Origin: an uncultured Verrucomicrobiae bacterium | GTDB taxonomy: Bacteria; Verrucomicrobiota; Verrucomicrobiia; Limisphaerales; UBA11358 | Assembly: GCA_963806905.1 (NCBI GenBank) | Contig: CAWEAA010000008.1 | Span: 392,447-456,446 of the forward strand | Direction: 5' to 3' | Length of the DNA stretch: 64,000 nt | Shown here: one piece after another, positions 1,032 through 62,100 of the stretch | Layout: every line of letters begins with the position of its first letter | How positions within the stretch are numbered: the stretch's first letter is position 1 | Notes under the pieces: generated by a model | What the model saw: only the letters and a program-made list of their open reading frames with translations | Database searches by the model: none | What the model was told of the DNA's origin: nothing | Program-made: the position numbers and the translations under genes

Positions 1032-1955
1032 ATGAACGATATAGACATCATACGCCTGACATCGGGGCTACTGCAGTTCGGGGTGGCTTGGTACGCGCTG
1101 CGCCTGGGCCGGCTTTTCAGGTCAACGCTCATGGGGTGGTTGCTTTTTGGTGCGCTCTCCCTCCTGGCGTTGCTGAGTTTGTTTCTCGCGGTGGAACCAT
1201 CTGATGCCGGCACCCAGTGGGGAATCAAAGTGGACGTCATTTACTCCCTGCTGCTGCTTGCAGGCATGACGCGCTTTTATCCCGGCCTCAAGAACTTCTT
1301 GCGGGAAGAGGAGGCGAAACGACAGGCGCTGGACAAATGGGAATCGCAAGTCAAGGAACAGTGGATGGAATTGATCAAAGTCAACGAAAAACTGCGCCAG
1401 ACGGTCAACCGGCTTGAGACGGAAATCGCCGAACGGAAACAGGCGCAGGAACAGGGGGAGAAAAATTTGCAGGCTCTGCTGGCCGCGTCGCGCCAGAACG
1501 AGCAAACCTTGCCGCCGGCCGCAACCAGGGTGGAAACAGAACTGATCGAACGGCAGCCTTCGCCGGCATCGGAACCGGCCGAGAAGAACGGCGAACCCCG
1601 GCTGAACGCCCCGTACAAAAACGGCGAGGAATCGCGACCGGTGGTTGCTGGATTCGACACGGAAATTATCGCGCCGAAGCCGGAACCGGAACCGGCGGAG
1701 AAGAATGGCGAACCCCCACGGACTGCCCCACACAAAAATGGCGAGGAATTACGAACGGGGATCGTCGAGCTCGACACGGAATTAATCGCGCCGGAACCGG
1801 AACCTGAACCGGCCGAAAAGAACAGGGAGTCCCTGCTGACCGCACCGCGCAAAACCCGGGAGGAAACGCGGCAAACCGTCTGCGTTTCTGACCGGAAAAT
1901 TGCCGGACGCAAACCAAGCCGGACGAGGCGGAAAAAGCCTGCCAAGACGCGCTGA
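1032..1955 (+). CDS. membrane-anchored coiled-coil protein with tandem 39-aa repeats (hypothetical)
   Basis: 307-aa ORF. Two N-terminal hydrophobic helices, a charged coiled-coil-like segment (EEAKRQALDKWESQVKEQWMELIKVNEKLRQ), then repeats PAEKNGEP...IAP(K/E)PEPE. No family recognised. Confidence 0.55.
   Translation: MNDIDIIRLTSGLLQFGVAWYALRLGRLFRSTLMGWLLFGALSLLALLSLFLAVEPSDAGTQWGIKVDVIYSLLLLAGMTRFYPGLKNFLREEEAKRQALDKWESQVKEQWMELIKVNEKLRQTVNRLETEIAERKQAQEQGEKNLQALLAASRQNEQTLPPAATRVETELIERQPSPASEPAEKNGEPRLNAPYKNGEESRPVVAGFDTEIIAPKPEPEPAEKNGEPPRTAPHKNGEELRTGIVELDTELIAPEPEPEPAEKNRESLLTAPRKTREETRQTVCVSDRKIAGRKPSRTRRKKPAKTR
1523..1880. repeat. in-frame 117-nt tandem repeat (about 3 units) inside CDS 1032-1955
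   Basis: GAACCGGC(C/G)GAGAAGAA(C/T)GGCGAACCC recurs at 1572 and 1689, and a diverged copy at 1806. The period is exactly 117 nt. Confidence 0.8.
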
Positions 1956-23257: not shown

Positions 23258-24568
23258 ATGAATGCCGCGTGGGTCATGCTTTCGGTCGCGACGCTGAGTG
23301 TGTTGCTGTCGTTTGGCTGCTCGACGACGCCCGGGCCCCGGTCGTTTCCGGCCCCGGCCGCGTTGCCGCCGTGCGACGCATTGCCGGATCCCCTCGTCAT
23401 GCTCGACGGCCGCCGGGTAAACTCGCCCGGGCAGTGGTTCGACCAGCGCCGGCCGGAACTGATGGTCCTCTTCCAACATTACATGTACGGCACGCTGCCA
23501 CCCAAGCCCGCGCGGATGCGGGCCGGGGTGACGGCCGAATACGGTGATTTTGCCGGCGGCAAGGCAACGCTCCGGCTGATCACGCTGGAAACCGGATCGA
23601 ATGGCGCGCCGCAAATCAATTTGATGCTGGTGCTGCCGAATCATCGTCCGGGCCGGGTGCCGGTTTTTCTCGGGCTGAACTTTTGCGGCAACCAATCGCT
23701 GACGGCCGATCCGCGCGTGCCGCTGGCGCGCGGCTGGCTGACCGCGTTGTGCAAGGGGTGCTCGAACAACGTCGCCACGGAGGCGGCGCGATCGGCCGGT
23801 GCCGCTGACTGGCCGGGAGACGAATGGCCGGTCGCCGACATCGTTGAACGCGGGTACGGCCTCGCCACGTTCTGTAGTTGTGACATTGATTCCGACCGGC
23901 CCGACATCAGCGACGGCCTTTACCAATGGCTCGCCGGCGGCGACCCGGCGCGGAACCGGCCCGCGGATCGAGGCACCATCGCCGCGTGGGCCTGGGGCTT
24001 CCAGCGTTGCGTGGATTACTTGGAGTCGGATCCGGACGTGGACCCGCGCCACATTGCCGCGTTGGGCCATTCACGCAACGGCAAGGCGGCGCTGCTGGCG
24101 GCGGCGTTCGACGACCGCATTGCCCTTGCCGTGGTGCACCAGGCCGGGTGCGGCGGCAGCGCCCCCAGCCGCGGCAAGACTGGAGAGCAGCTCCGCGACA
24201 TCAACCGCGTCTTCCCCCACTGGTTTAATGCAAAATTCAAACAGTTCAACGATTGCCCGGAACGGCTGCCCTTCGACCAGAATTGCCTGGTCGCCTTGTG
24301 CGCGCCGCGGGCGGTCCTGTTCTCCAACGGCCAGGCGGACCAGTGGGCAAATCCAGCCGGCCAGTTCGATGTGTTGCAAGCGGCCGCCCCGGTCTATCGC
24401 CTGCTCGGCGTTGACGGGTTGGCTGCGCAGCCCATGCCGGCGCCGGGCCAGCTTGTCGGAAACCGCCTCGGCTATTACATCCGGGCCGGGGGACATTCCA
24501 TGACACCGGCTGACTGGAAGATCTTTATGGATTTTGCCGACCGCCAATGGGGCAAACCCGCCCGTTGA
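23258..24568 (+). CDS. CE15-type glucuronoyl esterase (4-O-methyl-glucuronoyl methylesterase-like)
   Basis: 436 aa with a lipoprotein-like signal (LSFGCS). Nucleophile motif GHSRNGKAAL matches the G-x-S-R-x-G signature of CE15. Overall alpha/beta hydrolase pattern. Confidence 0.7.
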   Translation: MNAAWVMLSVATLSVLLSFGCSTTPGPRSFPAPAALPPCDALPDPLVMLDGRRVNSPGQWFDQRRPELMVLFQHYMYGTLPPKPARMRAGVTAEYGDFAGGKATLRLITLETGSNGAPQINLMLVLPNHRPGRVPVFLGLNFCGNQSLTADPRVPLARGWLTALCKGCSNNVATEAARSAGAADWPGDEWPVADIVERGYGLATFCSCDIDSDRPDISDGLYQWLAGGDPARNRPADRGTIAAWAWGFQRCVDYLESDPDVDPRHIAALGHSRNGKAALLAAAFDDRIALAVVHQAGCGGSAPSRGKTGEQLRDINRVFPHWFNAKFKQFNDCPERLPFDQNCLVALCAPRAVLFSNGQADQWANPAGQFDVLQAAAPVYRLLGVDGLAAQPMPAPGQLVGNRLGYYIRAGGHSMTPADWKIFMDFADRQWGKPAR

Positions 24569-24594
24569 AACATCTTTTTCACACCGCACCAATC

Positions 24595-25995
24595 ATGAAA
24601 AGAATATTCAAAGAAATCGCCGGTTCCATCGTCGCGCCGAAGGGCTTTCTCGCCGGCGGCGTGTTTTGCGACATTAAACGCCTCGGCACGGGTAAAGGCT
24701 CGGAAAAGGGACAAAAACGGGATCTCGCGCTGATTGTGTCCGAGGTCCCGGCGACCGTTGCCGGCATGTTCACGACCAATCAGGTCTGTGCCGCGCCGGT
24801 AAAAGTTTGTGTTGAGCGCGTCAAAAAGGGAATCGCCCAGGCCATTGTCGTTAATTCCGGCAATGCCAATGCCTGTACTAGCAAACAGGGCTTGAAAGAT
24901 GCGCGCGAAATGACGCGCTTGGTGGCTGGCGCTGTAGCCGCGTTTATCAAAACGCGGAAAACTTTCGCTGCTCTCGCCGCCTGCCATCCGCATTCTCACG
25001 AATGCGGCTACGAATTACCCGCCGAACACGTTCTGGTCGGTTCTACCGGACGTATTGGTGTCACCTTGCCAATGGTTAACGTAAGGCGTGGCATCTCCGA
25101 GGCTGCAAAAGTCTTGGGTAATTCAAAAACACACGCTGACCAGGCGGTCGAAGCCATCATGACGAGCGACACGCGGCCCAAGCAGATTGCGGTCGAATTC
25201 AAGCTGGGCGGCAAAACCGTCCGCATCGGCGGCATATGTAAGGGCGCGGGCATGATTCAACCGGGCATGTCCGCCACCGGCGCAAGGCCGGCCGCGCTTC
25301 ATGCCACGATGCTGTGCTTTATCACCACCGATGCGGCGATTGAAGCGAAAATTCTGCAGGCCGCATTGAGGGAAGCCGTCGCGCAGAGTTTCAATCGCAT
25401 CACCGTGGACGGCGACATGAGTACCAACGACACCGTGCTCGTGCTGGCGAATGGCTTGGCGGGGAACAAAAACATTCAACATTCAACATTCAACATTCAA
25501 CGCCGAATTTTTCAAGCGGCGCTGAATCACGTCTGCCTGGAACTGGCTAAAATGATTGTGCGCGACGGCGAAGGCGTTCATCGCGTCGTGACGGTGCGCG
25601 TGAACGGCGCGAAAAACTTTGCCGATGCCGATGCCGCGGCGCGGGCGGTGGCCAACAGTCCTCTCGTGAAAACAAGCTGGCACGGTGGCGACCCGAATTG
25701 GGGCCGCATCATTGACGCCGTCGGCTACAGCGCGGCAACCGTGGTGGAAGAGAAAGTGGACATTGGCTACAGCGCTCCGGGTGAGGAAAAAATTCTCTGG
25801 AGTCTGAAACGCGGCCAGCCGACGAAGGCGACATTTAAGCAACTCTGTGCGGCTGTGGCGCCGAAGGAATTTGACTTGCACATCAACCTGAATCTTGGCA
25901 AAGCCGGTGCCGTGATTTACGCCGCCGATTTGACGGAAGCCTACGTGGATTTCAACAAGGGCGACGTGGGCGATCCGGGTTCGCTCGGAGGATAA
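24595..25995 (+). CDS. argJ: bifunctional ornithine acetyltransferase / N-acetylglutamate synthase
   Basis: ATG 24595 in ORF 24547-25995. KGFLAGGVFCDIK start and the autoprocessing site context HATMLCFITTDA. Carries two repeat-derived in-frame insertions. Confidence 0.9.
   Translation: MKRIFKEIAGSIVAPKGFLAGGVFCDIKRLGTGKGSEKGQKRDLALIVSEVPATVAGMFTTNQVCAAPVKVCVERVKKGIAQAIVVNSGNANACTSKQGLKDAREMTRLVAGAVAAFIKTRKTFAALAACHPHSHECGYELPAEHVLVGSTGRIGVTLPMVNVRRGISEAAKVLGNSKTHADQAVEAIMTSDTRPKQIAVEFKLGGKTVRIGGICKGAGMIQPGMSATGARPAALHATMLCFITTDAAIEAKILQAALREAVAQSFNRITVDGDMSTNDTVLVLANGLAGNKNIQHSTFNIQRRIFQAALNHVCLELAKMIVRDGEGVHRVVTVRVNGAKNFADADAAARAVANSPLVKTSWHGGDPNWGRIIDAVGYSAATVVEEKVDIGYSAPGEEKILWSLKRGQPTKATFKQLCAAVAPKEFDLHINLNLGKAGAVIYAADLTEAYVDFNKGDVGDPGSLGG
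24934..25011. repeat. REPIN-like doublet inside argJ (78 nt, in frame)
   Basis: GTAGCCGCGTTTATCAAAACGCGG at the left end. The right end reads GTAGCCGCATTCGTGAGAATGCGG on the opposite strand. Each is GTAG plus an 8-bp-stem hairpin. Confidence 0.75.
25471..25501. repeat. (AACATTC)n heptanucleotide tandem repeat inside argJ
   Basis: AACATTC x4 plus AAC, translated as NIQHSTFNIQ. Confidence 0.85.
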
Positions 25996-30194: not shown

Positions 30195-30278
30195 CCAAAA
30201 AATGGATTATGCTTTTTTCCCTCCGCCACCGTTGTCAATGGGCCGTGGCCGGGGCAAATCAACGTCTCCGCCGGCGGC
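30195..30278 (-). repeat. copy R4 of the 3' end of the HTH-MBL gene
   Basis: The minus strand reads PPAETLICPGHGPLTTVAEGKKHNPFF, against PPETLICPGHGPLTTVAEEKEHNPFF at the real gene end. Starts 10 nt after the PIN gene stop. Confidence 0.8.
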
Positions 30279-30288
30279 GCGCAGTCGT

Positions 30289-30678
30289 TCATACAGGAAT
30301 CCAGATGACGGGGAGTTTCTCATCGCGGTTGCGGCGATACCAGTTGAAATGGCTGTCGTCGGTGATGATTTTGAACGACGGAAACAATTCGCTGGCGCGC
30401 ACGAGGGTGGCGTCCGCAAAGTCCATTTCCGGCGCGTATTTTTCCAGCAGCGCGGCCAGCGCGGATTTTTCCTCCTCCACGTCCAGCGCAAAACGGTAGT
30501 CGCCAATGATTTTGGCGACGATTTTGAAGTCCCCGATCAAATGACTTGCTTCGGCGAATGCCGCCGTCGTCGTCCATAAACGGTCGTGGTATTGCTTGAA
30601 GAAATTCTGCGCCCACGCGCGGCGTTTGGGCGTTTTGGCGAACGGACTGACGATAAAACTGGTGTCAGCGAGAAACAT
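30289..30678 (-). CDS. vapC: PIN-domain toxin (VapC-like)
   Basis: 129 aa. Acidic residues in PIN-typical positions (FLADTSF, AEASH, DFADATLV, IITDDSHF). Overlaps the upstream antitoxin gene by 14 nt. Confidence 0.75.
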   Translation of the reverse strand: MFLADTSFIVSPFAKTPKRRAWAQNFFKQYHDRLWTTTAAFAEASHLIGDFKIVAKIIGDYRFALDVEEEKSALAALLEKYAPEMDFADATLVRASELFPSFKIITDDSHFNWYRRNRDEKLPVIWIPV

Positions 30679-30919
30679 GACGGCGGGCGATGGCGGCGCG
30701 GATTTGCCCGCGCTCGGTTTTGCCGGGCAATTCCGGCACAGTAAATCCTTCGCGGCTCAATTCAAGGCTGGCGGAGGACGAGGCGGCTTCCGCCCGCGAA
30801 GCGGCATCTGTGACGATTTGTTGCAGGAAGGCATAAGGCGAAAGGCCGCGCTGCCGTGCCGCCTTTTGAAATTTGGCCGCCACTTTCTGCTCCACCCGGG
30901 TTTGCAAAAGCATTGTCAT
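30665..30919 (-). CDS. RHH/CopG-like antitoxin (VapB-like)
   Basis: 84 aa from ATG 30919. N-terminal TRVEQKVAAKFQKAARQRGLSPYAFLQQIV looks like a ribbon-helix-helix. Genetic coupling to the PIN gene. Confidence 0.6.
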   Translation of the reverse strand: MTMLLQTRVEQKVAAKFQKAARQRGLSPYAFLQQIVTDAASRAEAASSSASLELSREGFTVPELPGKTERGQIRAAIARRHVSR

Positions 30920-30963
30920 ACACAAAGTGTAATCTTCGTATCAAGAATGTCAACAACCACAAA

Positions 30964-31046
30964 CCAAAAACGGGATTGTGTTCTTTTCCCTTTGCTACGG
31001 CCGCCAACGGACCGCGGTCATGGCAAATCAAGGTTTCCTGCGGCGG
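30964..31046 (-). repeat. copy R3 of the 3' end of the HTH-MBL gene
   Basis: The minus strand reads PPQETLICHDRGPLAAVAKGKEHNPVF. Confidence 0.75.
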
Positions 31047-31103
31047 ATGTTCGTCCCGATACATCCGAATTGAGATGCCGAGGAATCGGCTGATTTCAGG
31101 CAT
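31041..31103 (-). pseudogene. 5' remnant of a DUF4160-type gene, truncated at repeat R3
   Basis: MPEISRFLGISIRMYRDEHPP matches the DUF4160 N-terminus (MP.I..F.G..I.MY..DH.PPH). The reading frame then runs straight into the MBL-tail repeat. Confidence 0.6.
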
Positions 31104-31380
31104 GGACGGGTTGCGGTTTTTGATCCGACAACGCTTCCGGTTTTTGGCCGGTCACTTGCAGCCAGAGCGAATCGGGACAGAAATCAAGCTGGTCGTTCCA
31201 GAGCAGTTCACCGCAATCGCCGATACGCGCTTTGCAAAAATTCTCGTAGCTGTTCCACGAGGCATAAATACCCGTGCGCGGTTTTTTGGAAAAATCCACC
31301 TCGCCCTCAACGCCATCGTTGAAGCGCAACCAGACGCGGTAATTATCCAGAACCTTTAATGCGGTGATTTTTTTCATCAC
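31096..31380 (-). CDS. DUF2442-like small protein
   Basis: 94 aa; ITALKVLDNYRVWLRFNDGVEGEVDFS ... GELLWNDQLDFCPDSLW resembles DUF2442, the usual partner of DUF4160. Confidence 0.65.
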   Translation of the reverse strand: MMKKITALKVLDNYRVWLRFNDGVEGEVDFSKKPRTGIYASWNSYENFCKARIGDCGELLWNDQLDFCPDSLWLQVTGQKPEALSDQKPQPVHA

Positions 31381-31456
31381 AATTCCATCCTACAACAATG
31401 CAGGGGCGCATTCAACTCAAAATCCACAACCGAACTCGCGAATTTAAAAGATAAAT

Positions 31457-31526
31457 CGTGGTTTTTTCTTCCGCGACCGTCGTCAACGGATTGAGCCATG
31501 CGGAAGGCGATGGTTTCGTTTGCGGG
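31457..31526 (-). repeat. copy R2 of the 3' end of the HTH-MBL gene (degenerate arms, exact core)
   Basis: The 26-nt TTTTCTTCCGCGACCGTCGTCAACGG at 31464-31489 is identical to 32091-32116. The flanks are diverged. Confidence 0.75.
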
Positions 31527-31533
31527 AAACCGA

Positions 31534-31812
31534 TTAAAAATACGCGTCCACCACCCGCGTCAGGCGCTCGTTCACAAAGATCGTGTTGTGGTGGCCAAAC
31601 AGCGGTTTGCGCCGTTTCTCAATCCGTACGTCCGATTTCTCCGCGCCATCAATTACGAAGTGGTAAACCTCATGGACCGGTTCGTTGAAAATGCGTGTGG
31701 ATTGTAAAATCGGCCGGTCGTCCACGCGGATGACCAGGGTGCCGCGAAGCTGGTTGAAGTTGAATTCGACGAGGTGTTTGTCTGTGTTGCCAATCTCCAA
31801 AGTGAATCTCAT
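31534..31812 (-). CDS. hypothetical small protein (92 aa)
   Basis: ORF between repeat copies R1 and R2. No motif recognised. Confidence 0.45.
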   Translation of the reverse strand: MRFTLEIGNTDKHLVEFNFNQLRGTLVIRVDDRPILQSTRIFNEPVHEVYHFVIDGAEKSDVRIEKRRKPLFGHHNTIFVNERLTRVVDAYF

Positions 31813-32068
31813 AAGTCGTGGGCTTGTGCCCGGTTTTCACAAGGCGCAATCCTTGTGCCACCTGTACGGCGAGTCTCATTCGCAATGCCCGCCGCCAGCA
31901 GGCAGGAAGCGATATGCTTTGGCAATTGTTGCCCGCTGGCAAATTCGGGTTGTGACTGGAGAAAAACCGCGGCTTTAACTTTAATCGTAGGCTGAAGATT
32001 GCGAAATGTGTCCCGATGGTCACCTGGCAGTGTCCAATTTTTGCTTTGCCAATCGAACCATCGGTAAA

Positions 32069-32150
32069 TCAAAAGAACGGATTGTGTTCCTTTTCTTCCG
32101 CGACCGTCGTCAACGGGCCGTGGCCGGGACAAATCAGCGTTTCCGGCGGC
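32069..32150 (-). repeat. copy R1 (the functional 3' end of the MBL gene) of the four-copy repeat
   Basis: Aligns by eye with 31457-31526, 30964-31046 and 30195-30278. Confidence 0.8.
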
Positions 32151-32929
32151 AGCGATAAAATCTGTTCGCGCACTTTTTGCCGCGCCAAATCCCATGACTG
32201 GTTGCCCCGTCCAATCGAGCCGGCGAAAATCGCGTCGCCCACGATGGCCACGTGCGGTGCGTCCTCCTGCCAGTTGCCGACGATGTAGGTCACGCCGTCC
32301 TCCGCGTGGCCGGGCGTTTCGCGATGCGTGATGCGCAGCCCGCCAAGATGGACGATTTCGCTTGGTTTGTTGCGCTGGTCCACCGGCGCGTTTTTGGAAC
32401 CGCTGTGCAACCGCACTTTCGGCCACGCCTCGCGGATTTTTGGCAGCGCTTCCACGTGATCATAGTGCGAGTGCGTGATAAAAATGTGCCGCAGCACGAG
32501 CTGGTTTTCGGCGATGCAATCCAGAATCGGTTTCGCGTCAAAGCCGGTGTCAAACAGCGCTGCGTCGCGCGTGACTTCATCCCAAACCAGATAACAATTC
32601 ACAGCCATGCCGTCGCCGGCGGTGGTGAACACGCGCAATTCACGCCAGACGCTCAAATCCTTTTCCGCCGGCAGCCAGCCATGGGCAAGGCCTTCCAGTT
32701 TGGCCGGATTTAAACCGACCAGCCGGGCGAGCGCGGCAACGTCGGGTCGTTTGCCAGTTTGTCCGCTTTCTTCGAGTCCGGAAAGTTCGGCTTCGGAAAT
32801 TCCTGCGGCCTTGGCCGCGGCAGCCGTCGAAACGTTGCTCATCGCGCGCGCCTTGCGGATGATGTCGCCCAGATGGTCTTCGAGATTCACACCGGAACGG
32901 TAAGGGGCAAAGTTCGCCACCGCAAGCAT
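32069..32929 (-). CDS. XRE-type HTH + metallo-beta-lactamase-fold protein
   Basis: 286 aa. N-terminal HTH (LGDIIRKARAMSNVSTAAAAKAAGISEAELSGLE). MBL motif THSHYDH (HxHxDH). C-terminus PPETLICPGHGPLTTVAEEKEHNPFF. Confidence 0.8.
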   Translation of the reverse strand: MLAVANFAPYRSGVNLEDHLGDIIRKARAMSNVSTAAAAKAAGISEAELSGLEESGQTGKRPDVAALARLVGLNPAKLEGLAHGWLPAEKDLSVWRELRVFTTAGDGMAVNCYLVWDEVTRDAALFDTGFDAKPILDCIAENQLVLRHIFITHSHYDHVEALPKIREAWPKVRLHSGSKNAPVDQRNKPSEIVHLGGLRITHRETPGHAEDGVTYIVGNWQEDAPHVAIVGDAIFAGSIGRGNQSWDLARQKVREQILSLPPETLICPGHGPLTTVAEEKEHNPFF

Positions 32930-35230: not shown

Positions 35231-35291
35231 CCCCTCACCCGTCCTGGCGGACACCCTCTCCCCGCCCGGCGGAGAGGGCCAGGGCGAGGGG
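35231..35291. repeat. nested palindromic REP-like element (type C) between convergent pdxA and trpC; likely bidirectional terminator
   Basis: CCCCTCACCC ... CCCTCTCC-CCGCCCGGC-GGAGAGGG-CC-AGGGCGAGGGG. A related copy lies inside hemY at 54104-54161. Confidence 0.7.
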
Positions 35292-35304: not shown

Positions 35305-36171
35305 TTAACCAATCAACTCCTGGATCTTTGATTTGATGTCACCGCCGCGCATCAATGATTCGCCGACCAAAATGGCGTTGGCGCCGCATTGCTTCAAACG
35401 TTCCACGTCCGCGCGCGTGTGAATGCCGCTTTCGGCGATGAGGAGTGACGAGTGACGGGTGGCGGGTGACGAGAATAGCTTACCCGCGATTTTTTCGGTT
35501 GTGGCCAGGTCAACTTTGAATGTCTTCAAATCGCGGTTGTTCACGCCGATAAGGGTCGCGCCAATTTTCATCGCGCGTTCCAATTCCGGTTCATCATGAA
35601 CCTCCACCAGCGCCGCCAGACCGGCCTCGGTGGCCAGCGAATGGAATTTTTTCAATTGGTCGTCGGTCAAGATCGCGACGATGAGCAGGATGGCGTCCGC
35701 GCCCCATTCGATGGCTTCGAGGATTTGCCGCTCGTCAATGATGAAGTCTTTTCGCAGCAGCGGCAATTTCACCGCTGTGCGAATCTGACGGAGATACTCG
35801 AGCGAGCCTTGAAAGAATTTCTCGTCGGTCAAGACCGACAGGCAACTTGCACCCGCCGCTTCGTATGCCTTCGCGATGCGGACTGGATCGAAGTTCTGGC
35901 AAATCACGCCCGCCGAAGGCGAGGCCTTTTTGACTTCGGCAATCAGCGCGATGGAATGTAGCACAGGCGTCTCGCCTGTCGGGTTAGAGGAAAAGCAAGC
36001 CGCCGGGACGGCTACGCTACATCGCCGCGGATTTTTCAGCGCGGCAATGAAATCGCGTTGTTCGCCGCGTTCGAGCAGGGCGTCGCGCAAATCGCCGGCG
36101 GCAATGAGCCGCGCCGGCAATTGCGTGATCTCGCGTTTCTTCTGCTCAACGATTTTGTCGAGGATCGTCAT
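35305..36171 (-). CDS. trpC: indole-3-glycerol-phosphate synthase
   Basis: 288 aa; IAEVKKASPSAG, LLRKDFIID and IAESGI motifs. Contains two repeat-derived in-frame insertions. Confidence 0.9.
   Translation of the reverse strand: MTILDKIVEQKKREITQLPARLIAAGDLRDALLERGEQRDFIAALKNPRRCSVAVPAACFSSNPTGETPVLHSIALIAEVKKASPSAGVICQNFDPVRIAKAYEAAGASCLSVLTDEKFFQGSLEYLRQIRTAVKLPLLRKDFIIDERQILEAIEWGADAILLIVAILTDDQLKKFHSLATEAGLAALVEVHDEPELERAMKIGATLIGVNNRDLKTFKVDLATTEKIAGKLFSSPATRHSSLLIAESGIHTRADVERLKQCGANAILVGESLMRGGDIKSKIQELIG
35443..35473. repeat. heptad-periodic tract inside trpC
   Basis: GAGTGAC GAGTGAC GGGTGGC GGGTGAC GAG on the plus strand, translated (minus) as SSPATRHSSL just before IAESGI. Confidence 0.75.
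35958..36020. repeat. REPIN-like doublet inside trpC (63 nt, in frame)
   Basis: GTAGCACAGGCGTCTCGCCTGT... at the left end and ...GCCGGGACGGCTACGCTAC at the right end (GTAGCGTAGCCGTCCCGGC on the other strand). Removing it leaves ALKNPRRYSIALIAEVKKASPS. Confidence 0.7.
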
Positions 36172-44246: not shown

Positions 44247-44276
44247 AATTGGAGACGCGGGCTGCTGGTCCGCGCG

Positions 44277-44330
44277 TTGGAGTCCAAGCTTTAGCTTGTC
44301 GCCGGCTGCAAGCTGAAGCTTGAACTCCAA
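44277..44330. terminator. long imperfect palindrome between convergent genes (putative bidirectional terminator / repeat)
   Basis: TTGGAGTCCAAGCTTTAGCTTG - TCGCCGGCT - GCAAGCTGAAGCTTGAACTCCAA: roughly 20-bp arms with a few mismatches and no U-tract. Confidence 0.5.
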
Positions 44331-44334
44331 CCTG

Positions 44335-45342
44335 TCACAATTTCGCCCCACCGGCTTGAGCTGCGGCTTCGATCTTCGTTCCCGCCAGATGGCACGCGGC
44401 AAATTGGCCTGTTTTGACCTCCCGCAATGCCGGCACTTCCGTTTTGCATCGCGCTTCGGCAATCGGACAGCGCGGATGGAAAGGGCAGCCGGACGGCGGA
44501 TGAATCGGTGACGGCACGTCGCCCGGCAGGACAATCCGCCGCCGCTTCGTTTCCGGATCCACTTCCGGCACGGCGGAAATCAGCGCCTGCGTGTAGGGAT
44601 GCTGCGGCTCGCGGATCAAGGTTCTTGCATCCGCCGTTTCCACAATTTTGCCGAGGTACATCACCATCACGCGGTGGCTGATATGTTCCACGACGGCCAG
44701 GTCGTGAGCGATGAAGAGATAAGCGATGCCGCGTTGCTGCTGCAAATCCTGGAGCAAATTAATGATCTGCGCCTGAACCGAAACGTCCAGCGCGCTCACC
44801 GGTTCGTCGCAGATAATCAGTTCCGGCTCGACTGCCAGCGCGCGGGCGATGCCGATGCGCTGGCGTTGCCCGCCGCTGAATTCATGCGGATACCGCTGCG
44901 CGTGAATCGGGTCGAGGCCGACCCCGGCCAGCAGTTCGGCGATGCGTTTTTGCCGCGCCAGTTTGCTGCCGGTCAGTTTGTGAATGTCGAGCGCCTCGCC
45001 GACAATTTGCTCGACGGTCATGCGCGGATTGAGCGAGCCGTAGGGGTCCTGGAAAATCATCTGGAACTTGCGCCGCCGCGCGCGCAACACCGAACCACTC
45101 ATCCGCGTGATGTCCTCGCCGCTGAGCAGAACGCTGCCTGCAGTCGGCTCGACCAGCCGCACGATGGCGCGGGCGAGCGTCGTCTTGCCGCAACCGCTCT
45201 CGCCCACCAGTCCCAGCGTTTCCCCCGGCTCGACGCTGAAGCTCACGTCGTCCACCGCCTTCACAAATTCGCGGACACGGCTGAACAGCCCGTGCTTTAC
45301 CGGGAAATGCACCTTCACATTTTTGACTTCGAGCAAGGGCAT
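44335..45342 (-). CDS. oligopeptide/dipeptide-type ABC transporter ATP-binding protein (OppF/DppF-like)
   Basis: 335 aa; Walker [10 protein letters not shown], signature SGGQRQR, Walker [14 protein letters not shown]-terminal Opp-type extension. Confidence 0.85.
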
Positions 45343-46283: not shown

Positions 46284-47273
46284 TTAGAACCGTCGAATTA
46301 ACTTTGCGGCAAAATCTTCCAGCGACTCCTCCGGCTGCAATTCGATCCATTCCAGATTTTTTTGGGCGCAGAACCACGTCAATTGCCGCTTGGCGAATTG
46401 CCGCGTGCGGATTTTCACCAGCTCGATGGTTTCCGCCAATGGCCGTTCGCCGCGCAGATGTTCCACCACCTGCCGGTAACCGATGGCTTGCATCGCCGTT
46501 TTGTTTTCGGCGAGGCCGCGCTTGAGCAGTTCACGCGTCTCCTCGACCAGACCGTGCGCGAACATGGCGTCCACCCGCATGTCAATCCGTTTGCGCAAAT
46601 CGTCAGGCGTTCGTGTGAAACAGAAAAAGTTTGCTTTGGTAGGGACGGTGCGCCGCGCCGTCCAGTCATCGCGGCGCGATGACCCTACCTCCAGCTCGCC
46701 GGGAGTCTCGCCCCACCCTGCACGCTGTTTGGAGAATGGTTTCCCGGTCAGGCGGATTACCTCAATCGCGCGGATAACGCGGCGCGGGTTTTTTTTATCA
46801 ATTTTTCTAAAGGTGGCCGGATCGCGTTCGCATAATTCTTCGAGCAGAGTTTCCAACGGCATGGCTTCGAGTTGAGCGCGGAGTTTCGCGTCGGCGGACG
46901 GTGCTTCACCCAGTCCTTCGAGAAACGCCTTGAAGTAAAGTCCGGTGCCGCCGCAAAGAATCGGCACGCGCCCGCGCGACTGGATTTCCGCGACGGCATG
47001 ATGCGCGAGCCGGGCGAATTGCGCGGCGTCAAAGGACTCGGTCAGGTCGCAGATGTCAATCAGGTGATGTGGCACGCGGGCGCGTTCGGCGGGCGACGGT
47101 TTGGCCGTGCCGATGTCGAGTCCGCGATACACCTGCATGGAATCGGCGGAAATGATTTCACCGCCGAGCTGTTCGGCGAGATGCAACGCGATTGGGGATT
47201 TGCCGACGGCGGTCGGGCCGGCAATTAAAATTGGGAGTTGGGAGTTCGGAGCCGGGAGATCGGATTTTGCCAT
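46284..47273 (-). CDS. miaA: tRNA dimethylallyltransferase
   Basis: P-loop IAGPTAVGKS and SADSMQVYRGLDIGTAKP. ATG 47273 (the ORF track uses TTG 47279). Contains a REP-like insertion. Confidence 0.9.
   Translation of the reverse strand: MAKSDLPAPNSQLPILIAGPTAVGKSPIALHLAEQLGGEIISADSMQVYRGLDIGTAKPSPAERARVPHHLIDICDLTESFDAAQFARLAHHAVAEIQSRGRVPILCGGTGLYFKAFLEGLGEAPSADAKLRAQLEAMPLETLLEELCERDPATFRKIDKKNPRRVIRAIEVIRLTGKPFSKQRAGWGETPGELEVGSSRRDDWTARRTVPTKANFFCFTRTPDDLRKRIDMRVDAMFAHGLVEETRELLKRGLAENKTAMQAIGYRQVVEHLRGERPLAETIELVKIRTRQFAKRQLTWFCAQKNLEWIELQPEESLEDFAAKLIRRF
46639..46688. repeat. REPIN-like doublet inside miaA
   Basis: GTAGGGACGGTGCGCCGCGCCGTCC AGTCATCGCGGCGCGATGACCCTAC: two hairpins bounded by GTAG/CTAC, translated (minus) as EVGSSRRDDWTARRTVPT. 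Confidence 0.75.
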
Positions 47274-47305
47274 TCTCAATCCTCCATTCTCTATTTTCGC
47301 TTCAC
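47232..47305. repeat. two blocks of heptad-periodic sequence across the miaA start and the miaA-lgt spacer
   Basis: TGGGAGT TGGGAGT TCGGAGC CGGGAGA TCGGATT ... CATTCTC AATCCTC CATTCTC TATTTTC GCTTCAC. Confidence 0.65.
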
Positions 47306-53218: not shown

Positions 53219-54690
53219 AATCGGTTGCAATCATTGGGGCCGGCATCACGGGGTTGACCGCGGCGTTTTACCTGAGACGCAAGGGCATTCCGGTCACGGT
53301 TTATGAGGCGGGCTGTCGCGTGGGTGGCGTAATTCAATCCATCTGGAAGGATGGCTACCTGGCCGAGTTTGGACCAAATACGATTCTCGAAACGTCGCCG
53401 AAAATCGCTCGACTCATTCGTGACGTCGAGCTGGAATCACGCCGGCTTTATTCCCATTCGAGAGCCGAGGCGCGTTACGTGGTTCGTTACCGGCGCCCGA
53501 TTGACATGCCGGGTTCGCCGCTCGGATTTTTTACAACGGAACTTTTTTCGTTCAAAGCCAAGCTCGCGGTGTTGCGTGAGCCGTTCGTGCCGCGCCGCCG
53601 CGACGGCCGGGAAGAAACCGTCGCGGATTTCGTGAAGCGGCGGCTGAATCAGGAATTTCTCGACCACGCGATTGATGCGCTGGTCGCCGGCGTTTATGCA
53701 GGTGATCCATACAAATTATCCGTTCAACAGGCGCTCCCGAGGCTCGCTGAACTCGAGGCGCGTTACGGTTCGCTCATCAAAGGCCAGATTTTCGGCGCGG
53801 GCGAACGCAAACGGCGCGGGGAAATTGCCAAGGACCGCGCGCCGAAATTTTCGTTCGACGAAGGTTTGCAGGTTCTGCCGGACACGCTCCACCTGCAACT
53901 CGGTGACTCGGTGCGTCTCAACGTATCGGCAACAAAACTCACACAAACCAGTGATGGCTGGACCCTCACACTTTCGGAGGGGCGGGTTCCCGCTGCCGCT
54001 GAAATGGGGGGTTCGCAGAGCTTGACTATCCGGGAATTTGAAGCGGAGCACAGCGCGGTGATTTATTGCGGCACGGCGTACAAATTGGCGGAGTTGCAGA
54101 CAACCCTCACCCGGCCTTCGGCCACCCTCTCCCATCCGATGGGAGAGGGACTGGGTGAGGGCACATCGCTGAATCTGACCGCGTTTTCGGAAATCCGTTA
54201 TCCGCCGGTGGCGAGCGTCGTTTTGGGCTTTCGTCGCGAAGATGTTGCTCACCCTTGCCAGGGCTTCGGGATGTTGATTCCGAAAGTCGAAGGATTTAAT
54301 ATTCTCGGCACGATTTTCTCGTCGTCGCTGTTTCCGAACCGTGCTCCCGCCGGACACCTCACACTCACGAGCTACGTCGGTGGCGAGCGACAGCCGGAAC
54401 TCGCGTTGCTGCCGACGGAAAAACTGGTCGAACTGGCCTGCGAGGATTTGCGTGTCCTGCTTGGGGTGCGCGGGCAGCCGACATTTGTACATTGCGTGGT
54501 TTATCCCAGAGCGATTCCGCAATATAATCTCGGTTACGGTCGTTACCGCGGACTGCTGACGGAAATTGAAAACAGGGTGCCCGGGCTGCTTTTTGCCGGC
54601 CACTATCGCGACGGCGTTTCGCTGGGTGATTCAATTTTGTCGGGTTGCAACATGGTCGGGCGCGTGGAAAAGTTCCTGACCGCCAAATGA
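53215..54690 (+). CDS. hemY: FAD-dependent protoporphyrinogen/coproporphyrinogen oxidase (HemY type)
   Basis: ATG 53215 in ORF 52972-54690. Dinucleotide-binding VAIIGAGITGLTAAFYL. ATGA overlaps on both sides. Contains a palindromic insertion. Confidence 0.85.
   Translation: MKSVAIIGAGITGLTAAFYLRRKGIPVTVYEAGCRVGGVIQSIWKDGYLAEFGPNTILETSPKIARLIRDVELESRRLYSHSRAEARYVVRYRRPIDMPGSPLGFFTTELFSFKAKLAVLREPFVPRRRDGREETVADFVKRRLNQEFLDHAIDALVAGVYAGDPYKLSVQQALPRLAELEARYGSLIKGQIFGAGERKRRGEIAKDRAPKFSFDEGLQVLPDTLHLQLGDSVRLNVSATKLTQTSDGWTLTLSEGRVPAAAEMGGSQSLTIREFEAEHSAVIYCGTAYKLAELQTTLTRPSATLSHPMGEGLGEGTSLNLTAFSEIRYPPVASVVLGFRREDVAHPCQGFGMLIPKVEGFNILGTIFSSSLFPNRAPAGHLTLTSYVGGERQPELALLPTEKLVELACEDLRVLLGVRGQPTFVHCVVYPRAIPQYNLGYGRYRGLLTEIENRVPGLLFAGHYRDGVSLGDSILSGCNMVGRVEKFLTAK
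54104..54161. repeat. nested palindromic REP-like element (type C) inside hemY
   Basis: CCCTCACCC-GGCCTTCGGCCA-CCCTCTCCC-ATCCGAT-GGGAGAGGG-AC-TGGGTGAGGG, translated as LTRPSATLSHPMGEGLGEG. Confidence 0.8.
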
Positions 54691-59380: not shown

Positions 59381-60662
59381 GTGAAACCAACCGACCTGCG
59401 GGGCATCCTGCAATATATTCCGCAATTTCGCGAGAAGACGTTCATTCTCGCGATTGACGGTGCGATTGTCACCGACGAAAACTTCGCCACGTTGCTGCTG
59501 GACGTGGCGGTGTTGCGCTCGTTGAACATCCGCGTCGTGCTCGTCCACGGCGCGTCGGCGCAAATCAAGGCGCTTGCCGAGGAGCAAAAAATCCAACCGT
59601 CCAATCTCGACGGCTCCGGCGTGACGGACGCAGCCACGCTCCAGCTCGCGCTGACGGCCGCGAACCGGCTCACGCACGAGATTCTCGAAGGCCTTTCGGC
59701 CAACGACCTCCGCGCGGCCAGCACGAACGTCATCATCGCCCACCCGATGGGCATCATCCAGGGCGTGGACCATCTGTTCACCGGCAAGGTCGAGCGCGTG
59801 GACGTGGAACTGCTCCAAACGCTGCTCGCGCAGGGCGTCGTGCCGGTCATCCCGCCGCTCGGATTTGACGGGGACGGCAGAACGTATCGCGTGAATTCGG
59901 ACGGGGTCGCGGTCGCGGTGGCCGACGCGCTGAAAGCCATCAAGTTGATTTTCATCACGCCGCAGGACGGCATTCTCGTGCAGGGCCGGCTCATCCGCCA
60001 AATGCTGGTGGCCGACCTTGAGTCCGTTCTCGCCCTGCAAAAAAACGACATCGCACCGGAACATCTTTCCAAGGTGTTGCACGCCGTCGCGGCCTGCAAG
60101 GCCGGCGTGCCGCGCGTGCACATCATCAACGGCGCGCGTGGACGAAGGGCTGCTGGCCGAGGTGTTTTCCAATGACGGCATCGGCACGCTCATCTACGCC
60201 AATGAGTATCAGCAGATCCGCCGAGCGATGAAGAAGGACGTGCGGGCCATCCAGTTGCTGACGAAGGCGGCGGTCGAGTCGGATGAATTGCTCAAGCGCA
60301 CCCGCGCGGCCATTGAAAAAAGTCTCGGCGACTATTTCATTTTTGAGATTGATAAAAACCCGGTCGCGTGCGTCGCGTTGCACGTTTATCCCGAACAGAA
60401 AAAGGGCGAGCTGGCATGCCTTTACGTCAATCCCCTGCACGAAAACCGGGGCATCGGGCGCAAGCTGATTCAATACGTCGAAAACAAGGCGCGGGAGATG
60501 AACCTGACCGAGCTCCTCACGCTCTCGACGCAGGCGTTCACGTATTTTCAATCCAAAGCCGGTTTTGCCGAGGGCACGCCCGACGATTTGCCGCCCGCGC
60601 GCCGCGAGAAATACGAGCAAAGCGGAAGAAATTCCAAGGTGCTTGTGAAGAAGTTGAAATAA
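59381..60662 (+). pseudogene. argA: amino-acid N-acetyltransferase (acetylglutamate-kinase-like domain + GNAT), interrupted by a frameshift (or assembly error)
   Basis: ORF 59381-60175 (AAK fold: FILAIDGAIV, VLVHGAS) and ORF 60018-60662 (VDEGLLAEVFSNDGIGTLIY, then GNAT with RGIGRKL) join at the GCGCGCG tract 60132-60138. Either +1 or -2 nt restores VHIINGA(R)VDEGLL. Confidence 0.8.
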
Positions 60663-61491: not shown

Positions 61492-62100
61492 ATGTCACGA
61501 TTCAAAAACTGTTTGTCGGATTTTTTCTGCGCTTGCGAAAAATATGGCGTCGTGCCGGCTCAATTTATTCTTGTTGTCAACGCCGCGGAACAAACCGTTT
61601 CACTTTTTGAAGGAACTGTAGCGGCGGTCTATGACTGTCGCTCAAAGAAAAAAACGCATTCGAATTTACCGGCGGTCACAGACCGCCGGTACAGGTTTGT
61701 AAAAAGATTCCGCTGCTCGACTTCGCGTTTTGGCATCGGTCAGAACGCCGGCTCGAATTGCACACCGCTCGGTTTGCATCGCATCGCGGAAAAAATTGGC
61801 GGTGGCTGGCCGGTCGGAACCGTTTTCGAAAGCCGCAAACCCATGGGCTACACCTGGCGGGGGATGCCGGACGCAAAAATCACCACACGCATCCTGTGGC
61901 TCGAAGGACTCGAACCCGGCCTCAATCGCGGCGGCAATGTGGATTCGCACGCGCGCTACATTTACATTCACGGCACGGGCGATGAGACGACGATTGGCCG
62001 TCCGGCGTCGTGCGGTTGCATTCACCTGGCCGCCAATGATTTGGTTCCGCTCTTCGATTTGCTGCCTGTTGGTACGCTCGTTTGGATTTCCGAAAATTGA
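61492..62100 (+). CDS. L,D-transpeptidase (YkuD) family protein
   Basis: 202 aa; catalytic region IYIHGTGDETTIGRPASCGCIHL (HG ... S-x-G-C-I-[RH]). Confidence 0.75.
   Translation: MSRFKNCLSDFFCACEKYGVVPAQFILVVNAAEQTVSLFEGTVAAVYDCRSKKKTHSNLPAVTDRRYRFVKRFRCSTSRFGIGQNAGSNCTPLGLHRIAEKIGGGWPVGTVFESRKPMGYTWRGMPDAKITTRILWLEGLEPGLNRGGNVDSHARYIYIHGTGDETTIGRPASCGCIHLAANDLVPLFDLLPVGTLVWISEN

What the first reader, a model, noticed from the sequence alone, without database searches (positions are those of the whole stretch)
24934..25011. 78-nt GTAG-bounded REPIN-like doublet inserted in frame in argJ
The element starts on a codon boundary. It consists of two inverted GTAG+hairpin units: GTAGCCGCGTTTATCAAAACGCGG, and on the other strand GTAGCCGCATTCGTGAGAATGCGG. 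It adds 26 aa (VAAFIKTRKTFAALAACHPHSHECGY) just before the conserved VLVGSTGRIG block. Deleting it leaves a normal-looking ArgJ sequence (..RLVAGA|ELPAEHVLVGSTG..). GTAG followed by a palindrome is the hallmark of REP sequences mobilised by RAYT transposases. A length that is a multiple of three inside an essential enzyme suggests a tolerated, possibly translated, insertion.
Basis: partly seen in the sequence, partly recalled or inferred. Interest (0 to 1): 0.6.

Follow-up and report, generated by a model that had tools for sequence, protein, structure and literature searches.

The report
In-frame REP doublet inside argJ
A 78-base mobile palindromic DNA element (a REP doublet, or REPIN) sits in frame inside the arginine-biosynthesis gene argJ of a soil Verrucomicrobium and adds 26 amino acids to the enzyme; the reading is sound, but REP-decorated genes of this kind have been described in Verrucomicrobia since 2013.

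Summary
Window 24934-25011 holds two inverted GTAG+hairpin units, each with a perfect 8-bp stem, separated by a 30-nt spacer. The element lies in frame in an intact argJ. Three solved ArgJ/OAT structures and about 175 of 272 Verrucomicrobiota orthologues lack the segment.

The units belong to a dispersed GTAG-REP family of PVC bacteria (at least 120 exact-pattern loci). In related Limisphaerales genomes the same REP doublets flank a RAYT-like HUH/Y1 transposase gene on both sides.

Di Nocera et al. 2013 (PMC3733652) describe intragenic GTAG REP dimers encoding 20-30 aa, most numerous in the verrucomicrobium Opitutus terrae.

Additional results:
- The same ArgJ loop carries at least five unrelated palindromic element families across the phylum.
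- The REP arms are better conserved than the flanking argJ codons, also at third positions. The spacer drifts, and the stems show compensatory changes.
- One orthologue carries the element inverted in place.
- The window holds three more in-frame GTAG doublets, in trpC, miaA and a ykuD-like gene.

Not shown: translation of the insert, enzyme activity, a RAYT gene in this genome, and the position of the insert in the 3D structure. Verdict: a new member of a known kind, of modest interest.

The parts
24595..25995 (+). argJ, the bifunctional glutamate N-acetyltransferase / amino-acid acetyltransferase gene that hosts the element. An in-frame ATG also lies upstream at 24547.
   Evidence: The ORF is listed. 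Pfam ArgJ matches at E = 1.6e-126 over profile positions 10-372 of 377. An identical 466-aa protein is in the database and has 79-86% identical relatives named ArgJ. The ATML self-cleavage motif is present.
24934..25011 (+). The whole 78-nt REP doublet (REPIN-like), in frame, encoding the 26 aa VAAFIKTRKTFAALAACHPHSHECGY.
   Evidence: Sequence. Fold z-score -3.85. Alignments to solved structures break exactly here. Orthologues show presence and absence at this site.
24934..24957 (+). Left REP unit: GTAG, stem CCGCGTTT, loop ATCA, stem AAACGCGG.
   Evidence: The same unit, differing only in the loop, flanks RAYT-like genes in L281-L286. The stems are invariant in 7 orthologues and all changes fall in the loop.
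24958..24987 (+). The 30-nt spacer, encoding KTFAALAACH.
   Evidence: Its length is kept at 30 nt in the A group of inserts, but mean pairwise identity is only 0.50. It occurs as a reverse complement in L484.
24988..25011 (-). Right REP unit, read on the - strand: GTAG, stem CCGCATTC, loop GTGA, stem GAATGCGG.
   Evidence: This exact variant is a multi-copy REP in a Gemmataceae MAG. It differs from the CCGCGTTC/GAACGCGG variant by a compensatory pair, and L121 shows the half-changed intermediate.

Best explanation
The element is a REPIN: two inverted copies of a GTAG-tagged REP hairpin. It belongs to a family that is dispersed through Verrucomicrobiota, Planctomycetota and Lentisphaerota. Such elements are non-autonomous and are moved in trans by a RAYT, an HUH/Y1 single-strand DNA transposase that recognises the hairpin and cuts at the GTAG tag.

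One copy landed in the part of argJ that encodes the link between a helix and the VLVGSTGRIG strand of the alpha subunit. This happened in an ancestor of a Limisphaerales subgroup. The element is 78 nt long and stop-free in this frame, and it is also stop-free when reverse-complemented. The gene therefore stayed open, and the element is most likely translated as a 26-aa loop that the enzyme tolerates.

Since then the two hairpins have been held nearly constant at the nucleotide level, while the spacer has drifted as an unconstrained peptide of fixed length.

Shown here: family membership, dispersal, RAYT adjacency in relatives, the in-frame position, absence from most orthologues, and the conservation pattern.

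Inferred: mobilisation by a RAYT, translation of the insert, and its neutrality.
For: - **Anatomy.** Two GTAG units with perfect 8-bp stems in inverted orientation.
- **Dispersal.** The 24-mer pattern has at least 120 exact hits in genome contigs, with many per genome and mostly as doublets ending in GGCTAC. These include the closest genome, JBKQOA01, at three other loci (L014, L026, L031) besides its own argJ (L035).
- **RAYT link.** An ORF directly beside such REPs matches NCBIfam NF047646 (REP-associated tyrosine transposase, E = 3.9e-13, nearly the full profile). It also matches E. coli TnpA-REP (4er8), with the HUH and Tyr motifs aligned. It has 88 relatives in Verrucomicrobiota genomes. 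The closest ones (L281-L287, L289) carry doublets of this family on both sides, including the unit GTAGCCGCGTTTGTCAAAACGCGG.
- **Insertion.** Solved ArgJ/OAT homologues lack the segment. So do about 175 of 272 Verrucomicrobiota ArgJ sequences.
- **Persistence and constraint.** In 7 orthologous inserts, mean pairwise nucleotide identity is:
  - 0.95 for the left arm,
  - 0.84 for the right arm,
  - 0.50 for the spacer,
  - 0.80 and 0.74 for the flanking argJ sequence.
  Third-codon-position identity is 0.91 and 1.00 in the arms, against 0.56-0.63 in the flanks.
- **Base pairing.** The intra-arm stems are 96.9% paired across 12 sequences. Five pairs have changed on both sides. The covariation score is 0.292 against 0.133 in shuffles, and 0 of 500 shuffles reach it.
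- **Generality.** The same family lies in frame in IleRS (three genomes, same site), PheT, aconitase, GlyRS, AcrB, a P-type ATPase, a class-III aminotransferase and others. The window itself has three more in-frame GTAG doublets.
- **Real DNA.** Independent soil-metagenome contigs carry the element unchanged. One RNA-derived contig runs from inside the right arm into argJ.
- **Precedent.** Intragenic GTAG REP dimers encoding 20-30 aa are published (PMC3733652).
Against: - There is no other copy of this REP family and no RAYT in the 64-kb window or in 8 kb beyond it. Activity of the family in this particular genome is therefore unproven, and this copy may be a relic.
- The RAYT-like protein scores below NCBIfam's curated cut-off (49.5 against 80 bits) and has no Pfam hit.
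- Removing the element does not restore the canonical spacing exactly (43 against 44 aa), so it is not a clean insertion.
- The strong nucleotide-level conservation of the arms is not what a purely neutral passenger would show.
- There is no protein-level evidence of translation.
- Several different element families sit at the same loop. Random insertion followed by tolerance does not easily explain this.
Confidence: 0.85

Rival explanations
1. The element came from a REPIN but is now a selected functional part rather than a tolerated passenger. It might act as a structured segment of the argJ mRNA or DNA, affecting mRNA stability, translational pausing or protein binding. Alternatively it might be an invertible or exchangeable cassette that varies a surface loop of the enzyme.
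For: - The arms are more conserved than the neighbouring argJ codons, also at synonymous positions, and the stems show compensatory changes.
- The spacer in L484 (and in P0032, judged by its peptide) is the reverse complement of the spacer in the other orthologues: 0.53-0.77 identity as a reverse complement against 0.20-0.37 direct, and 0 of 10,000 shuffles reach 0.73. Both orientations are open reading frames.
- At least five unrelated palindromic families occupy the same ArgJ loop across two orders. The ykuD-like gene shows the same turnover.
Against: - Most orthologues, including close relatives at 80-83% identity, lack any insert and are presumably functional.
- The inserted peptides differ completely between families.
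- No Rfam family reaches its gathering score (best hit 19.5 against 44.4 bits), and there is no terminator-like site.
- Compensatory changes can arise without selection, through template switching within quasi-palindromes or gene conversion from other REP copies (established knowledge, not tested here).
- The covariation rests on few independent events in 12 related sequences.
- No reads show both orientations in one population; only assembled contigs were available.
Confidence: 0.12
2. The insertion inactivates or bypasses argJ. Either the gene is a decaying pseudogene, or the element is removed before the protein is made, so the 26 aa never appear in a working enzyme.
For: An ArgA-like gene (AA_kinase plus acetyltransferase domains) lies in the same window at about 59381-60661 (annotation of L490). 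It might cover the first step of the pathway. There are no proteomic data.
Against: - The ORF is intact over 466 codons, with all conserved ArgJ motifs including ATML.
- Flank substitutions are concentrated at third codon positions, as expected under purifying selection.
- The insert-bearing allele is kept open in dozens of distinct MAGs and contigs at 79-86% identity.
- No joints that skip the element were seen, and an RNA contig is continuous across the right junction.
Confidence: 0.04
3. The segment is a native, lineage-specific loop of ArgJ. Its palindromes are coincidental, or it is an assembly artefact.
For: Verrucomicrobial ArgJ does have other lineage-specific, non-palindromic extensions: SATGARPAA..LH just before ATML, and LGTGKGSEKG near the N-terminus.
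Against: - Both 24-nt arms match a pattern found at least 120 times in other genomes and beside RAYT-like genes.
- 0 of 200 shuffles fold as well.
- The element is recovered unchanged in independent metagenome assemblies.
Confidence: 0.01

Closest known systems
Intragenic GTAG REP dimers (Di Nocera, De Gregorio and Rocco 2013, BMC Genomics 14:522, PMC3733652), most numerous in Opitutus terrae (Verrucomicrobia)
   Same: Both are GTAG-tagged stem-loops arranged as inverted dimers inside ORFs of known proteins. Both encode 20-30 aa and occur in the PVC superphylum. tRNA synthetases are among the hosts in both. The paper also notes different REPs at about the same site in orthologous recB genes.
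   Different: The REP sequence family is different from the O. terrae examples read in their table (for example GTAG-18, peptide VGPALAAG). The host order is also different (Limisphaerales). ArgJ is not in their list of hosts. The paper does not report the conservation of arms against spacer, an inversion in place, or colonisation of one loop by several families across a phylum.
REPIN-RAYT systems of Pseudomonas and Enterobacteria (Bertels and Rainey 2011, PMC3116915; E. coli TnpA-REP structure 4er8)
   Same: Both have inverted REP doublets with a variable spacer and a RAYT gene flanked by its own REPs. In both, each RAYT clade is paired with its own REP variant, and the system persists over long periods.
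   Different: The classical REPINs are almost wholly extragenic. Here all four GTAG doublets in the 64 kb are intragenic and in frame. The RAYT-like protein is divergent: below the NCBIfam cut-off and without a Pfam hit.
Rickettsia palindromic elements (RPE; Ogata et al. 2000, cited from my own knowledge and via PMC3733652)
   Same: Both are palindromic repeats inserted in frame in housekeeping genes. They are thought to be translated and tolerated in surface loops.
   Different: The first-described RPEs (RPE-1) are longer, roughly 100-150 bp (from my own knowledge). PMC3733652 assigns the short RPE-4 and RPE-6 to CGTC-tagged REPs. They occur in Alphaproteobacteria with reduced genomes, and no dedicated RAYT is known for the CGTC type.
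Intragenic invertons (bioRxiv 10.1101/2023.03.11.532203, 'Intragenic DNA inversions expand bacterial coding capacity'; only the abstract was seen)
   Same: In both, inverted repeats inside a coding sequence flank a short segment. Here that segment occurs in both orientations among orthologues, and both orientations keep the frame open.
   Different: Inversion is seen here only between lineages, not within a population. No invertase is implicated, and the arms are REP hairpins.

Membership tests
REP / REPIN (GTAG type) | A short imperfect palindrome (stem of 5-13 bp) tagged at one end by GTAG. | tested here: met
   Both units are GTAG followed by a perfect 8-bp stem with a 4-nt loop.
REP / REPIN (GTAG type) | Multi-copy and dispersed within genomes. 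| tested here: inconclusive
   Met in relatives: at least 120 exact hits, with many loci per genome, for example in Gemmataceae MFD01248.bin.2.72, the Lentisphaerae MAG LJ_bin-4696 and JBKQOA01. In the window's own 64 kb, plus 8 kb beyond it, this family occurs only in argJ. The rest of the genome could not be read.
REP / REPIN (GTAG type) | Two REPs in inverted orientation separated by a short spacer (a doublet, or REPIN). | tested here: met
   The arms are inverted and the spacer is 30 nt. Most dispersed copies have the same architecture.
REP / REPIN (GTAG type) | A cognate RAYT gene flanked by the same REPs. | tested here: inconclusive
   Met in related genomes: L281-L287 and L289 have doublets of this family on both sides of the RAYT-like gene. 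There is no RAYT in the window (tblastn best E = 0.11). The window's whole genome could not be tested.
REP / REPIN (GTAG type) | Extragenic location, as the name implies. | tested here: not met
   The element lies inside argJ, in frame. Intragenic members are a documented minority (PMC3733652), so this does not exclude membership.
RAYT (REP-associated tyrosine transposase), for the ORF next to REPs in L004/L281 | An HUH motif and a catalytic Tyr motif in a protein of about 150-200 aa, matching a RAYT profile. | tested here: inconclusive
   NCBIfam NF047646 matches at E = 3.9e-13 over profile positions 3-146 of 146, but at 49.5 bits against a cut-off of 80. 4er8 matches at E = 0.013, with PDHLHLVW aligned to PEHMHCIW and YVLANPV to YIYINPV. 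There is no Pfam hit.
RAYT-mediated mobility of this element | The transposase binds and cleaves the REP hairpin at GTAG, and new insertions are observed. | not testable with these tools
   This needs biochemistry or mobilome sequencing.
Translated in-frame palindromic insert (RPE-like) | The insert keeps the frame and has no stop codon, and the host protein is otherwise conserved. | tested here: met
   The insert is 78 nt (26 codons) without a stop codon. The ArgJ motifs are intact.
Translated in-frame palindromic insert (RPE-like) | Insert-encoded peptide present in the mature protein; located in a surface loop. | not tested
   There are no proteomic data. The only hint is an RNA contig that crosses the right junction.
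Intragenic inverton | Both orientations coexist in one population, mediated by an invertase. | not testable with these tools
   Only assembled contigs were available and no joints were seen. Inversion is seen between lineages only.

The most novel reading that the evidence does not exclude
In Limisphaerales and their relatives, REPINs and other palindromic elements may not be random passengers. They may be targeted to, or specifically retained at, a limited set of loop-coding sites in housekeeping genes. There their hairpins would be actively maintained by RAYT-dependent conversion or by selection on DNA or RNA structure. The elements could be replaced by other families and inverted in place, acting as exchangeable in-frame cassettes that diversify protein surface loops. 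The four in-frame doublets found in 64 kb would then reflect a genome-wide coding-sequence niche for REPINs.
Probability: 0.15. Interest if true: 0.65.

Novelty: new member of a known kind. Interest (0 to 1): 0.35.

Why it matters
The element shows that a mobile palindromic sequence can live for a long time inside a central biosynthetic enzyme gene without breaking it. It also adds Limisphaerales ArgJ, together with TrpC, MiaA, a YkuD-like protein, IleRS, PheT, aconitase and others, to the list of REP-decorated proteins.

For annotation, peptide signatures such as VAAFVKTR, PRSHERGY, SRVRENA, RVLTNAAT and VAAVYDRR..AVTDRRY flag REP-derived inserts in PVC proteomes. They should not be read as functional motifs.

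For evolution, three patterns make these genes a convenient natural system for asking whether intragenic REPINs are neutral, maintained or useful. The patterns are arms conserved above the level of the surrounding codons, a free-drifting spacer of fixed length, and inversion and family turnover at one site.

Tried and rejected
- **Structure mapping.** AlphaFold2 on 36 close homologues gave mean pLDDT 34.2, which is unusable. I ran no further search on this.
- **Phylogeny of gains and losses.** A neighbour-joining (NJ) tree of 272 ArgJ sequences mixes filled and empty alleles. Fitch parsimony gives 21 presence/absence changes and 36 multistate changes. The tree of 80-86% identical sequences is too poorly resolved to trust, so I count events only by distinct element families.
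- **The window's own genome.** It is not among the species representatives (best match 83%). Neighbouring contigs from another assembly added only about 8 kb.
- **Reads.** All runs are kept as assembled contigs. No excision or inversion joints could be seen or excluded.
- **Known RNA families and terminators.** Nothing reached threshold.
- **One long inter-arm hairpin as the conserved structure.** It is 85.4% paired but not above shuffles (103 of 500). The individual REP hairpins are the conserved units.
- **Intein, intron or tandem-repeat origin.** I considered and dropped these. The element is 78 nt long, has no splicing or intein motifs, and is a member of a dispersed REP family.
Full report
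**What is there.** The window carries an intact argJ gene (24595-25995, with an upstream in-frame ATG at 24547). Pfam ArgJ matches it at E = 1.6e-126. At 24934-25011 lies a 78-nt element with three parts:
- a left unit, GTAG-CCGCGTTT-ATCA-AAACGCGG;
- a 30-nt spacer;
- a right unit which, read on the other strand, is GTAG-CCGCATTC-GTGA-GAATGCGG.

The element starts on a codon boundary, has no stop codon, and encodes VAAFIKTRKTFAALAACHPHSHECGY. The region folds far better than shuffled sequence (z = -3.85, 0 of 200 shuffles). The two arms are the only exact matches to GTAGCCGCRTT in the 64 kb.

**It is an insertion.** HMMER alignments to solved ArgJ/OAT proteins all split here. They cover Streptomyces clavuligerus OAT2 (1vz6, 2v4i), Bacillus halodurans (1vra) and Mycobacterium tuberculosis (3it4). 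My numbering of the query counts from window position 24592. Query residues up to about 109-116 and from about 138-142 align to chain residues that are adjacent or only a few residues apart.

Among 272 Verrucomicrobiota ArgJ sequences, the stretch between the NSGNANA and STGRIG motifs is 44 aa in about 175; the window has 69. These sequences come from species-representative genomes, metagenome contigs and database proteins. Removing the 26 aa leaves 43 aa, one short of canonical, so the flanks have also been remodelled.

**It is a REP doublet of a dispersed family.** The hits lie in Verrucomicrobiota, Gemmataceae and other Planctomycetes, and MAGs labelled Lentisphaerae. Many genomes hold many copies. 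Most copies are inverted doublets that end in ...GGCTAC, with spacers of variable sequence. The closest available genome is the Limisphaerales MAG JBKQOA01, whose ArgJ is 83% identical. It has the orthologous argJ insert (L035/L121) and at least three other copies (L014, L026, L031).

**RAYT link.** Next to such REPs in L004, L082 and L083 lies an ORF of about 190 aa with an HUH motif (PDHLHLVW) and a Tyr motif (YVLANPVRA). The evidence on it is as follows:
- It matches NCBIfam NF047646 'REP-associated tyrosine transposase' over almost the whole profile (E = 3.9e-13). The score is below the curated cut-off, at 49.5 against 80 bits.
- It matches E. coli TnpA-REP (4er8) weakly, but with both motifs aligned.
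- Pfam finds nothing.
- It has 88 relatives in Verrucomicrobiota genomes.
- The closest relatives (L281-L287, L289) are flanked on both sides by doublets of this family (GTAGCCGCGCTTGTGAAAGCGCGG plus GTAGCCGCGTTTGTCAAAACGCGG). More distant clades are flanked by their own REP variants.

This is the classical REP-RAYT arrangement. The window itself has no RAYT.

**Already described.** Di Nocera, De Gregorio and Rocco (2013, PMC3733652) catalogue GTAG REPs in the PVC superphylum. [quoted passage not shown] More than half of those inserts are dimers or groups encoding 20-30 aa, and tRNA synthetases and repair genes are among the hosts. They also note different REPs at about the same site in Xanthomonas recB genes. 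ArgJ is not in their table, and the O. terrae entries I read encode different peptides. The finding is thus a new member of a known kind.

**What I can add: the ArgJ loop.** This loop is occupied by several unrelated palindromic families.
- The GTAGCCGC family ('ABC' types) occurs in the window, in L121-L123, L202, L209 and L246, and in about 50 database proteins.
- A second GTAG family, GTAGCGGCGGTCTATGACCGCC ('D' type), gives the peptide VAAVYDRR..AVTDRRY.
  - It occurs in Limisphaerales (L215 and many proteins).
  - It also occurs in Chthoniobacterales (L175, L184, L195, L277, L280).
  - It is itself a dispersed family, with at least 120 hits.
  - In L346 it flanks a RAYT-like gene.
- A third GTAG heterodimer occurs in L214.
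- A GGGAGGGAC...GTCCCTCCC nested palindrome ('E' type) occurs in L488.
- Other hairpins occur in L153 and in L187/L279.

**What I can add: conservation pattern.** I compared seven orthologous inserts with the same architecture. Mean pairwise nucleotide identities are listed here.

| Segment | All positions | Third codon positions |
|---|---|---|
| Upstream argJ flank | 0.80 | 0.63 |
| Left arm | 0.95 | 0.91 |
| Spacer | 0.50 | 0.56 |
| Right arm | 0.84 | 1.00 |
| Downstream argJ flank | 0.74 | 0.56 |

All left-arm differences fall in the tetraloop. Across 12 inserts the intra-arm stems are 96.9% paired, against 30-48% when the partners are slid. Five pairs have changed on both sides, and covariation exceeds every one of 500 shuffles. 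One long inter-arm helix is not supported beyond shuffles. The window's right arm differs from the common CCGCGTTC/GAACGCGG by a compensated G-C to A-T pair. In the protein this reads as R to H plus R to C. L121 shows the half-changed intermediate.

These sequences are related and the number of independent events is small. Quasi-palindrome template switching or conversion from other copies could produce the same pattern without selection.

**What I can add: inversion in place.** The spacer of L484 is the reverse complement of the spacer in the other six inserts. Identity is 0.53-0.77 as a reverse complement against 0.20-0.37 direct, and 0 of 10,000 shuffles reach 0.73. P0032 shows the same peptide type. 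Both orientations of the element read as open frames. Either the doublet inverted between its arms, or it was excised and re-inserted in the opposite orientation.

**The phenomenon is general, and the window shows it four times.** In the loci fetched by the REP pattern, at least 13 of 120 lie in frame inside long genes. Nine of these were checked by Pfam:
- IleRS, at the same site in three genomes (L112 was the locus checked; L041 and L050 were assigned by sequence likeness);
- PheT (B3_4 domain);
- aconitase (C-terminal domain);
- GlyRS;
- AcrB;
- a P-type ATPase;
- a class-III aminotransferase;
- an FAD-linked oxidase;
- a kinase-WD40 protein.

Within the window I found three further in-frame GTAG doublets of other families.
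- **trpC:** about 35958-36020, - strand gene, peptide SVAVPAACFSSNPTGETPVL. The alignment to 3tsm skips about 20 aa there.
- **miaA:** 46639-46688, peptide VGSSRRDDWTARRTVPT. The alignment to 2qgn skips about 18 aa.
- **A ykuD-like gene:** 61618-61692, the D-type family, peptide VAAVYDCRSKKKTHSNLPAVTDRRY. Its homologues again show several element families, hybrids and empty alleles at that one site.

All four GTAG doublets that I recognised in the 64 kb are intragenic. Of the three other GTAG+hairpin units in the scan, one is the trpC left arm and one is a miaA arm. The total of 6 compares with 3.1 expected by chance.

**How it most likely works.** A RAYT-type HUH/Y1 transposase mobilised a REPIN as single-stranded DNA into the argJ coding strand. 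The copy survived because its length is a multiple of three, because the GTA-GCC...GGC-TAC frame is open, and because it fell in a permissive link between a helix and a strand of the alpha subunit. It is co-transcribed with argJ. One metatranscriptome contig runs from inside the right arm into argJ, and DNA contigs from independent soils carry the element unchanged. It is most probably translated. Translation, enzyme activity and surface location are inferred, not shown. The structure model was unusable.

**Verdict.** The finding is a new member of a known kind, of modest interest. The residual points of interest are the nucleotide-level maintenance of the hairpins, the inversion in place, and the repeated colonisation of the same loops. 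These leave open a more active biology than 'tolerated junk'.

Noticed in passing
window 61618-61692 (in ORF 61492-62100, + strand): A second in-frame REP doublet, 75 nt, of a different GTAG family: GTAGCGGCGGTCTATGACTGTCGC ... CCGGCGGTCACAGACCGCCGGTAC. It lies in a YkuD (L,D-transpeptidase) domain protein and encodes VAAVYDCRSKKKTHSNLPAVTDRRY. This is almost the same peptide as the 'D-type' insert in the ArgJ of related bacteria. Homologues carry at least four element types, hybrids and empty alleles at this site.
   Followed up: yes
window 46639-46688 (in miaA ORF 46284-47279, - strand): An in-frame GTAG doublet (arms GTAGGGACGGTGCGCCGCGCCGTCC and GTAGGGTCATCGCGCCGCGATG) encoding VGSSRRDDWTARRTVPT in tRNA dimethylallyltransferase. 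The alignment to 2qgn skips about 18 aa here. A similar REP unit lies next to a RAYT-like gene in L285.
   Followed up: partly
window about 35958-36020 (in trpC ORF 35305-36171, - strand): An in-frame GTAG heterodimer (GTAGCACAGGCGTCTCGCCTGT on the + strand, GTAGCCGTCCCGGCGGCT on the - strand) encoding about 20 aa (SVAVPAACFSSNPTGETPVL) in indole-3-glycerol phosphate synthase. The alignment to 3tsm skips the segment.
   Followed up: partly
L484 (argJ of protein P0011), compared with L482, L483, L485 and window 24958-24987: The 30-nt spacer of the argJ REP doublet is present as a reverse complement in this orthologue. P0032 shows the same peptide type. This points to an inversion, or an excision and re-insertion, in place, with the reading frame kept.
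   Followed up: yes
L281-L289, L346 and other loci: RAYT-like HUH/Y1 genes of about 190 aa are widespread in Verrucomicrobiota (88 relatives). Each clade is flanked by its own GTAG REP variant. The proteins fall below NCBIfam's RAYT cut-off and have no Pfam hit, so they are likely under-annotated.
   Followed up: partly
L112, L050, L041 (IleRS); L110 (PheT); L107 (aconitase); L031 (GlyRS); L093 (AcrB); L037 (P-type ATPase); L098 (aminotransferase); L094; L054: The same REP family lies in frame in many housekeeping genes of PVC MAGs. The recurrent peptide signatures depend on the frame: VAAFVKTR, SRVRENA, PRSHERGY and RVLTNAAT.
   Followed up: yes
window 25270-25302: ArgJ has an 11-aa extension (SATGARPAALH) directly before the ATML self-cleavage site. 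It is absent from the solved ArgJ/OAT proteins. It is conserved in sequence but varies in length (10-19 aa) across most Verrucomicrobiota, and is short or absent in many Chthoniobacterales. It is not palindromic.
   Followed up: partly
window 24682-24711: A 10-aa insert (LGTGKGSEKG) near the ArgJ N-terminus, relative to the 1vra and 3it4 alignments. It is nearly invariant among relatives.
   Followed up: no
ArgJ relatives, alignment (reference positions about 298 and about 395): Some close ArgJ relatives have further variable inserts, for example VTSLTSSKKVRASSRRLL and FASDASARRG. These may be additional palindromic elements at other sites of the same gene. Their DNA was not examined.
   Followed up: no
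window 35248-35290 and 54119-54161: Two copies of a non-GTAG palindromic repeat, CACCCTCTCC...GGAGAGGG followed by CAGGGCGAGGG. The first lies just downstream of trpC and looks like an extragenic repeat family.
   Followed up: no
window 44276-44331: A 56-nt near-perfect palindrome (86% complementary, arms abutting), immediately downstream of ORF 44335-45342 (- strand).
   Followed up: no
window 1562-1912; 30197-32154: Three tandem 117-nt repeats inside ORF 1032-1955. Separately, three dispersed copies of an 83-nt repeat (71-81% identity to the reference copy) spaced 0.8-1.1 kb apart, which suggests a small tandem gene family.
   Followed up: no
window about 59381-60661 (from the annotation of L490): An ArgA-like gene (amino-acid kinase plus GNAT acetyltransferase domains) lies in the same window as argJ. 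It is relevant to how essential the ArgJ synthase activity is.
   Followed up: no
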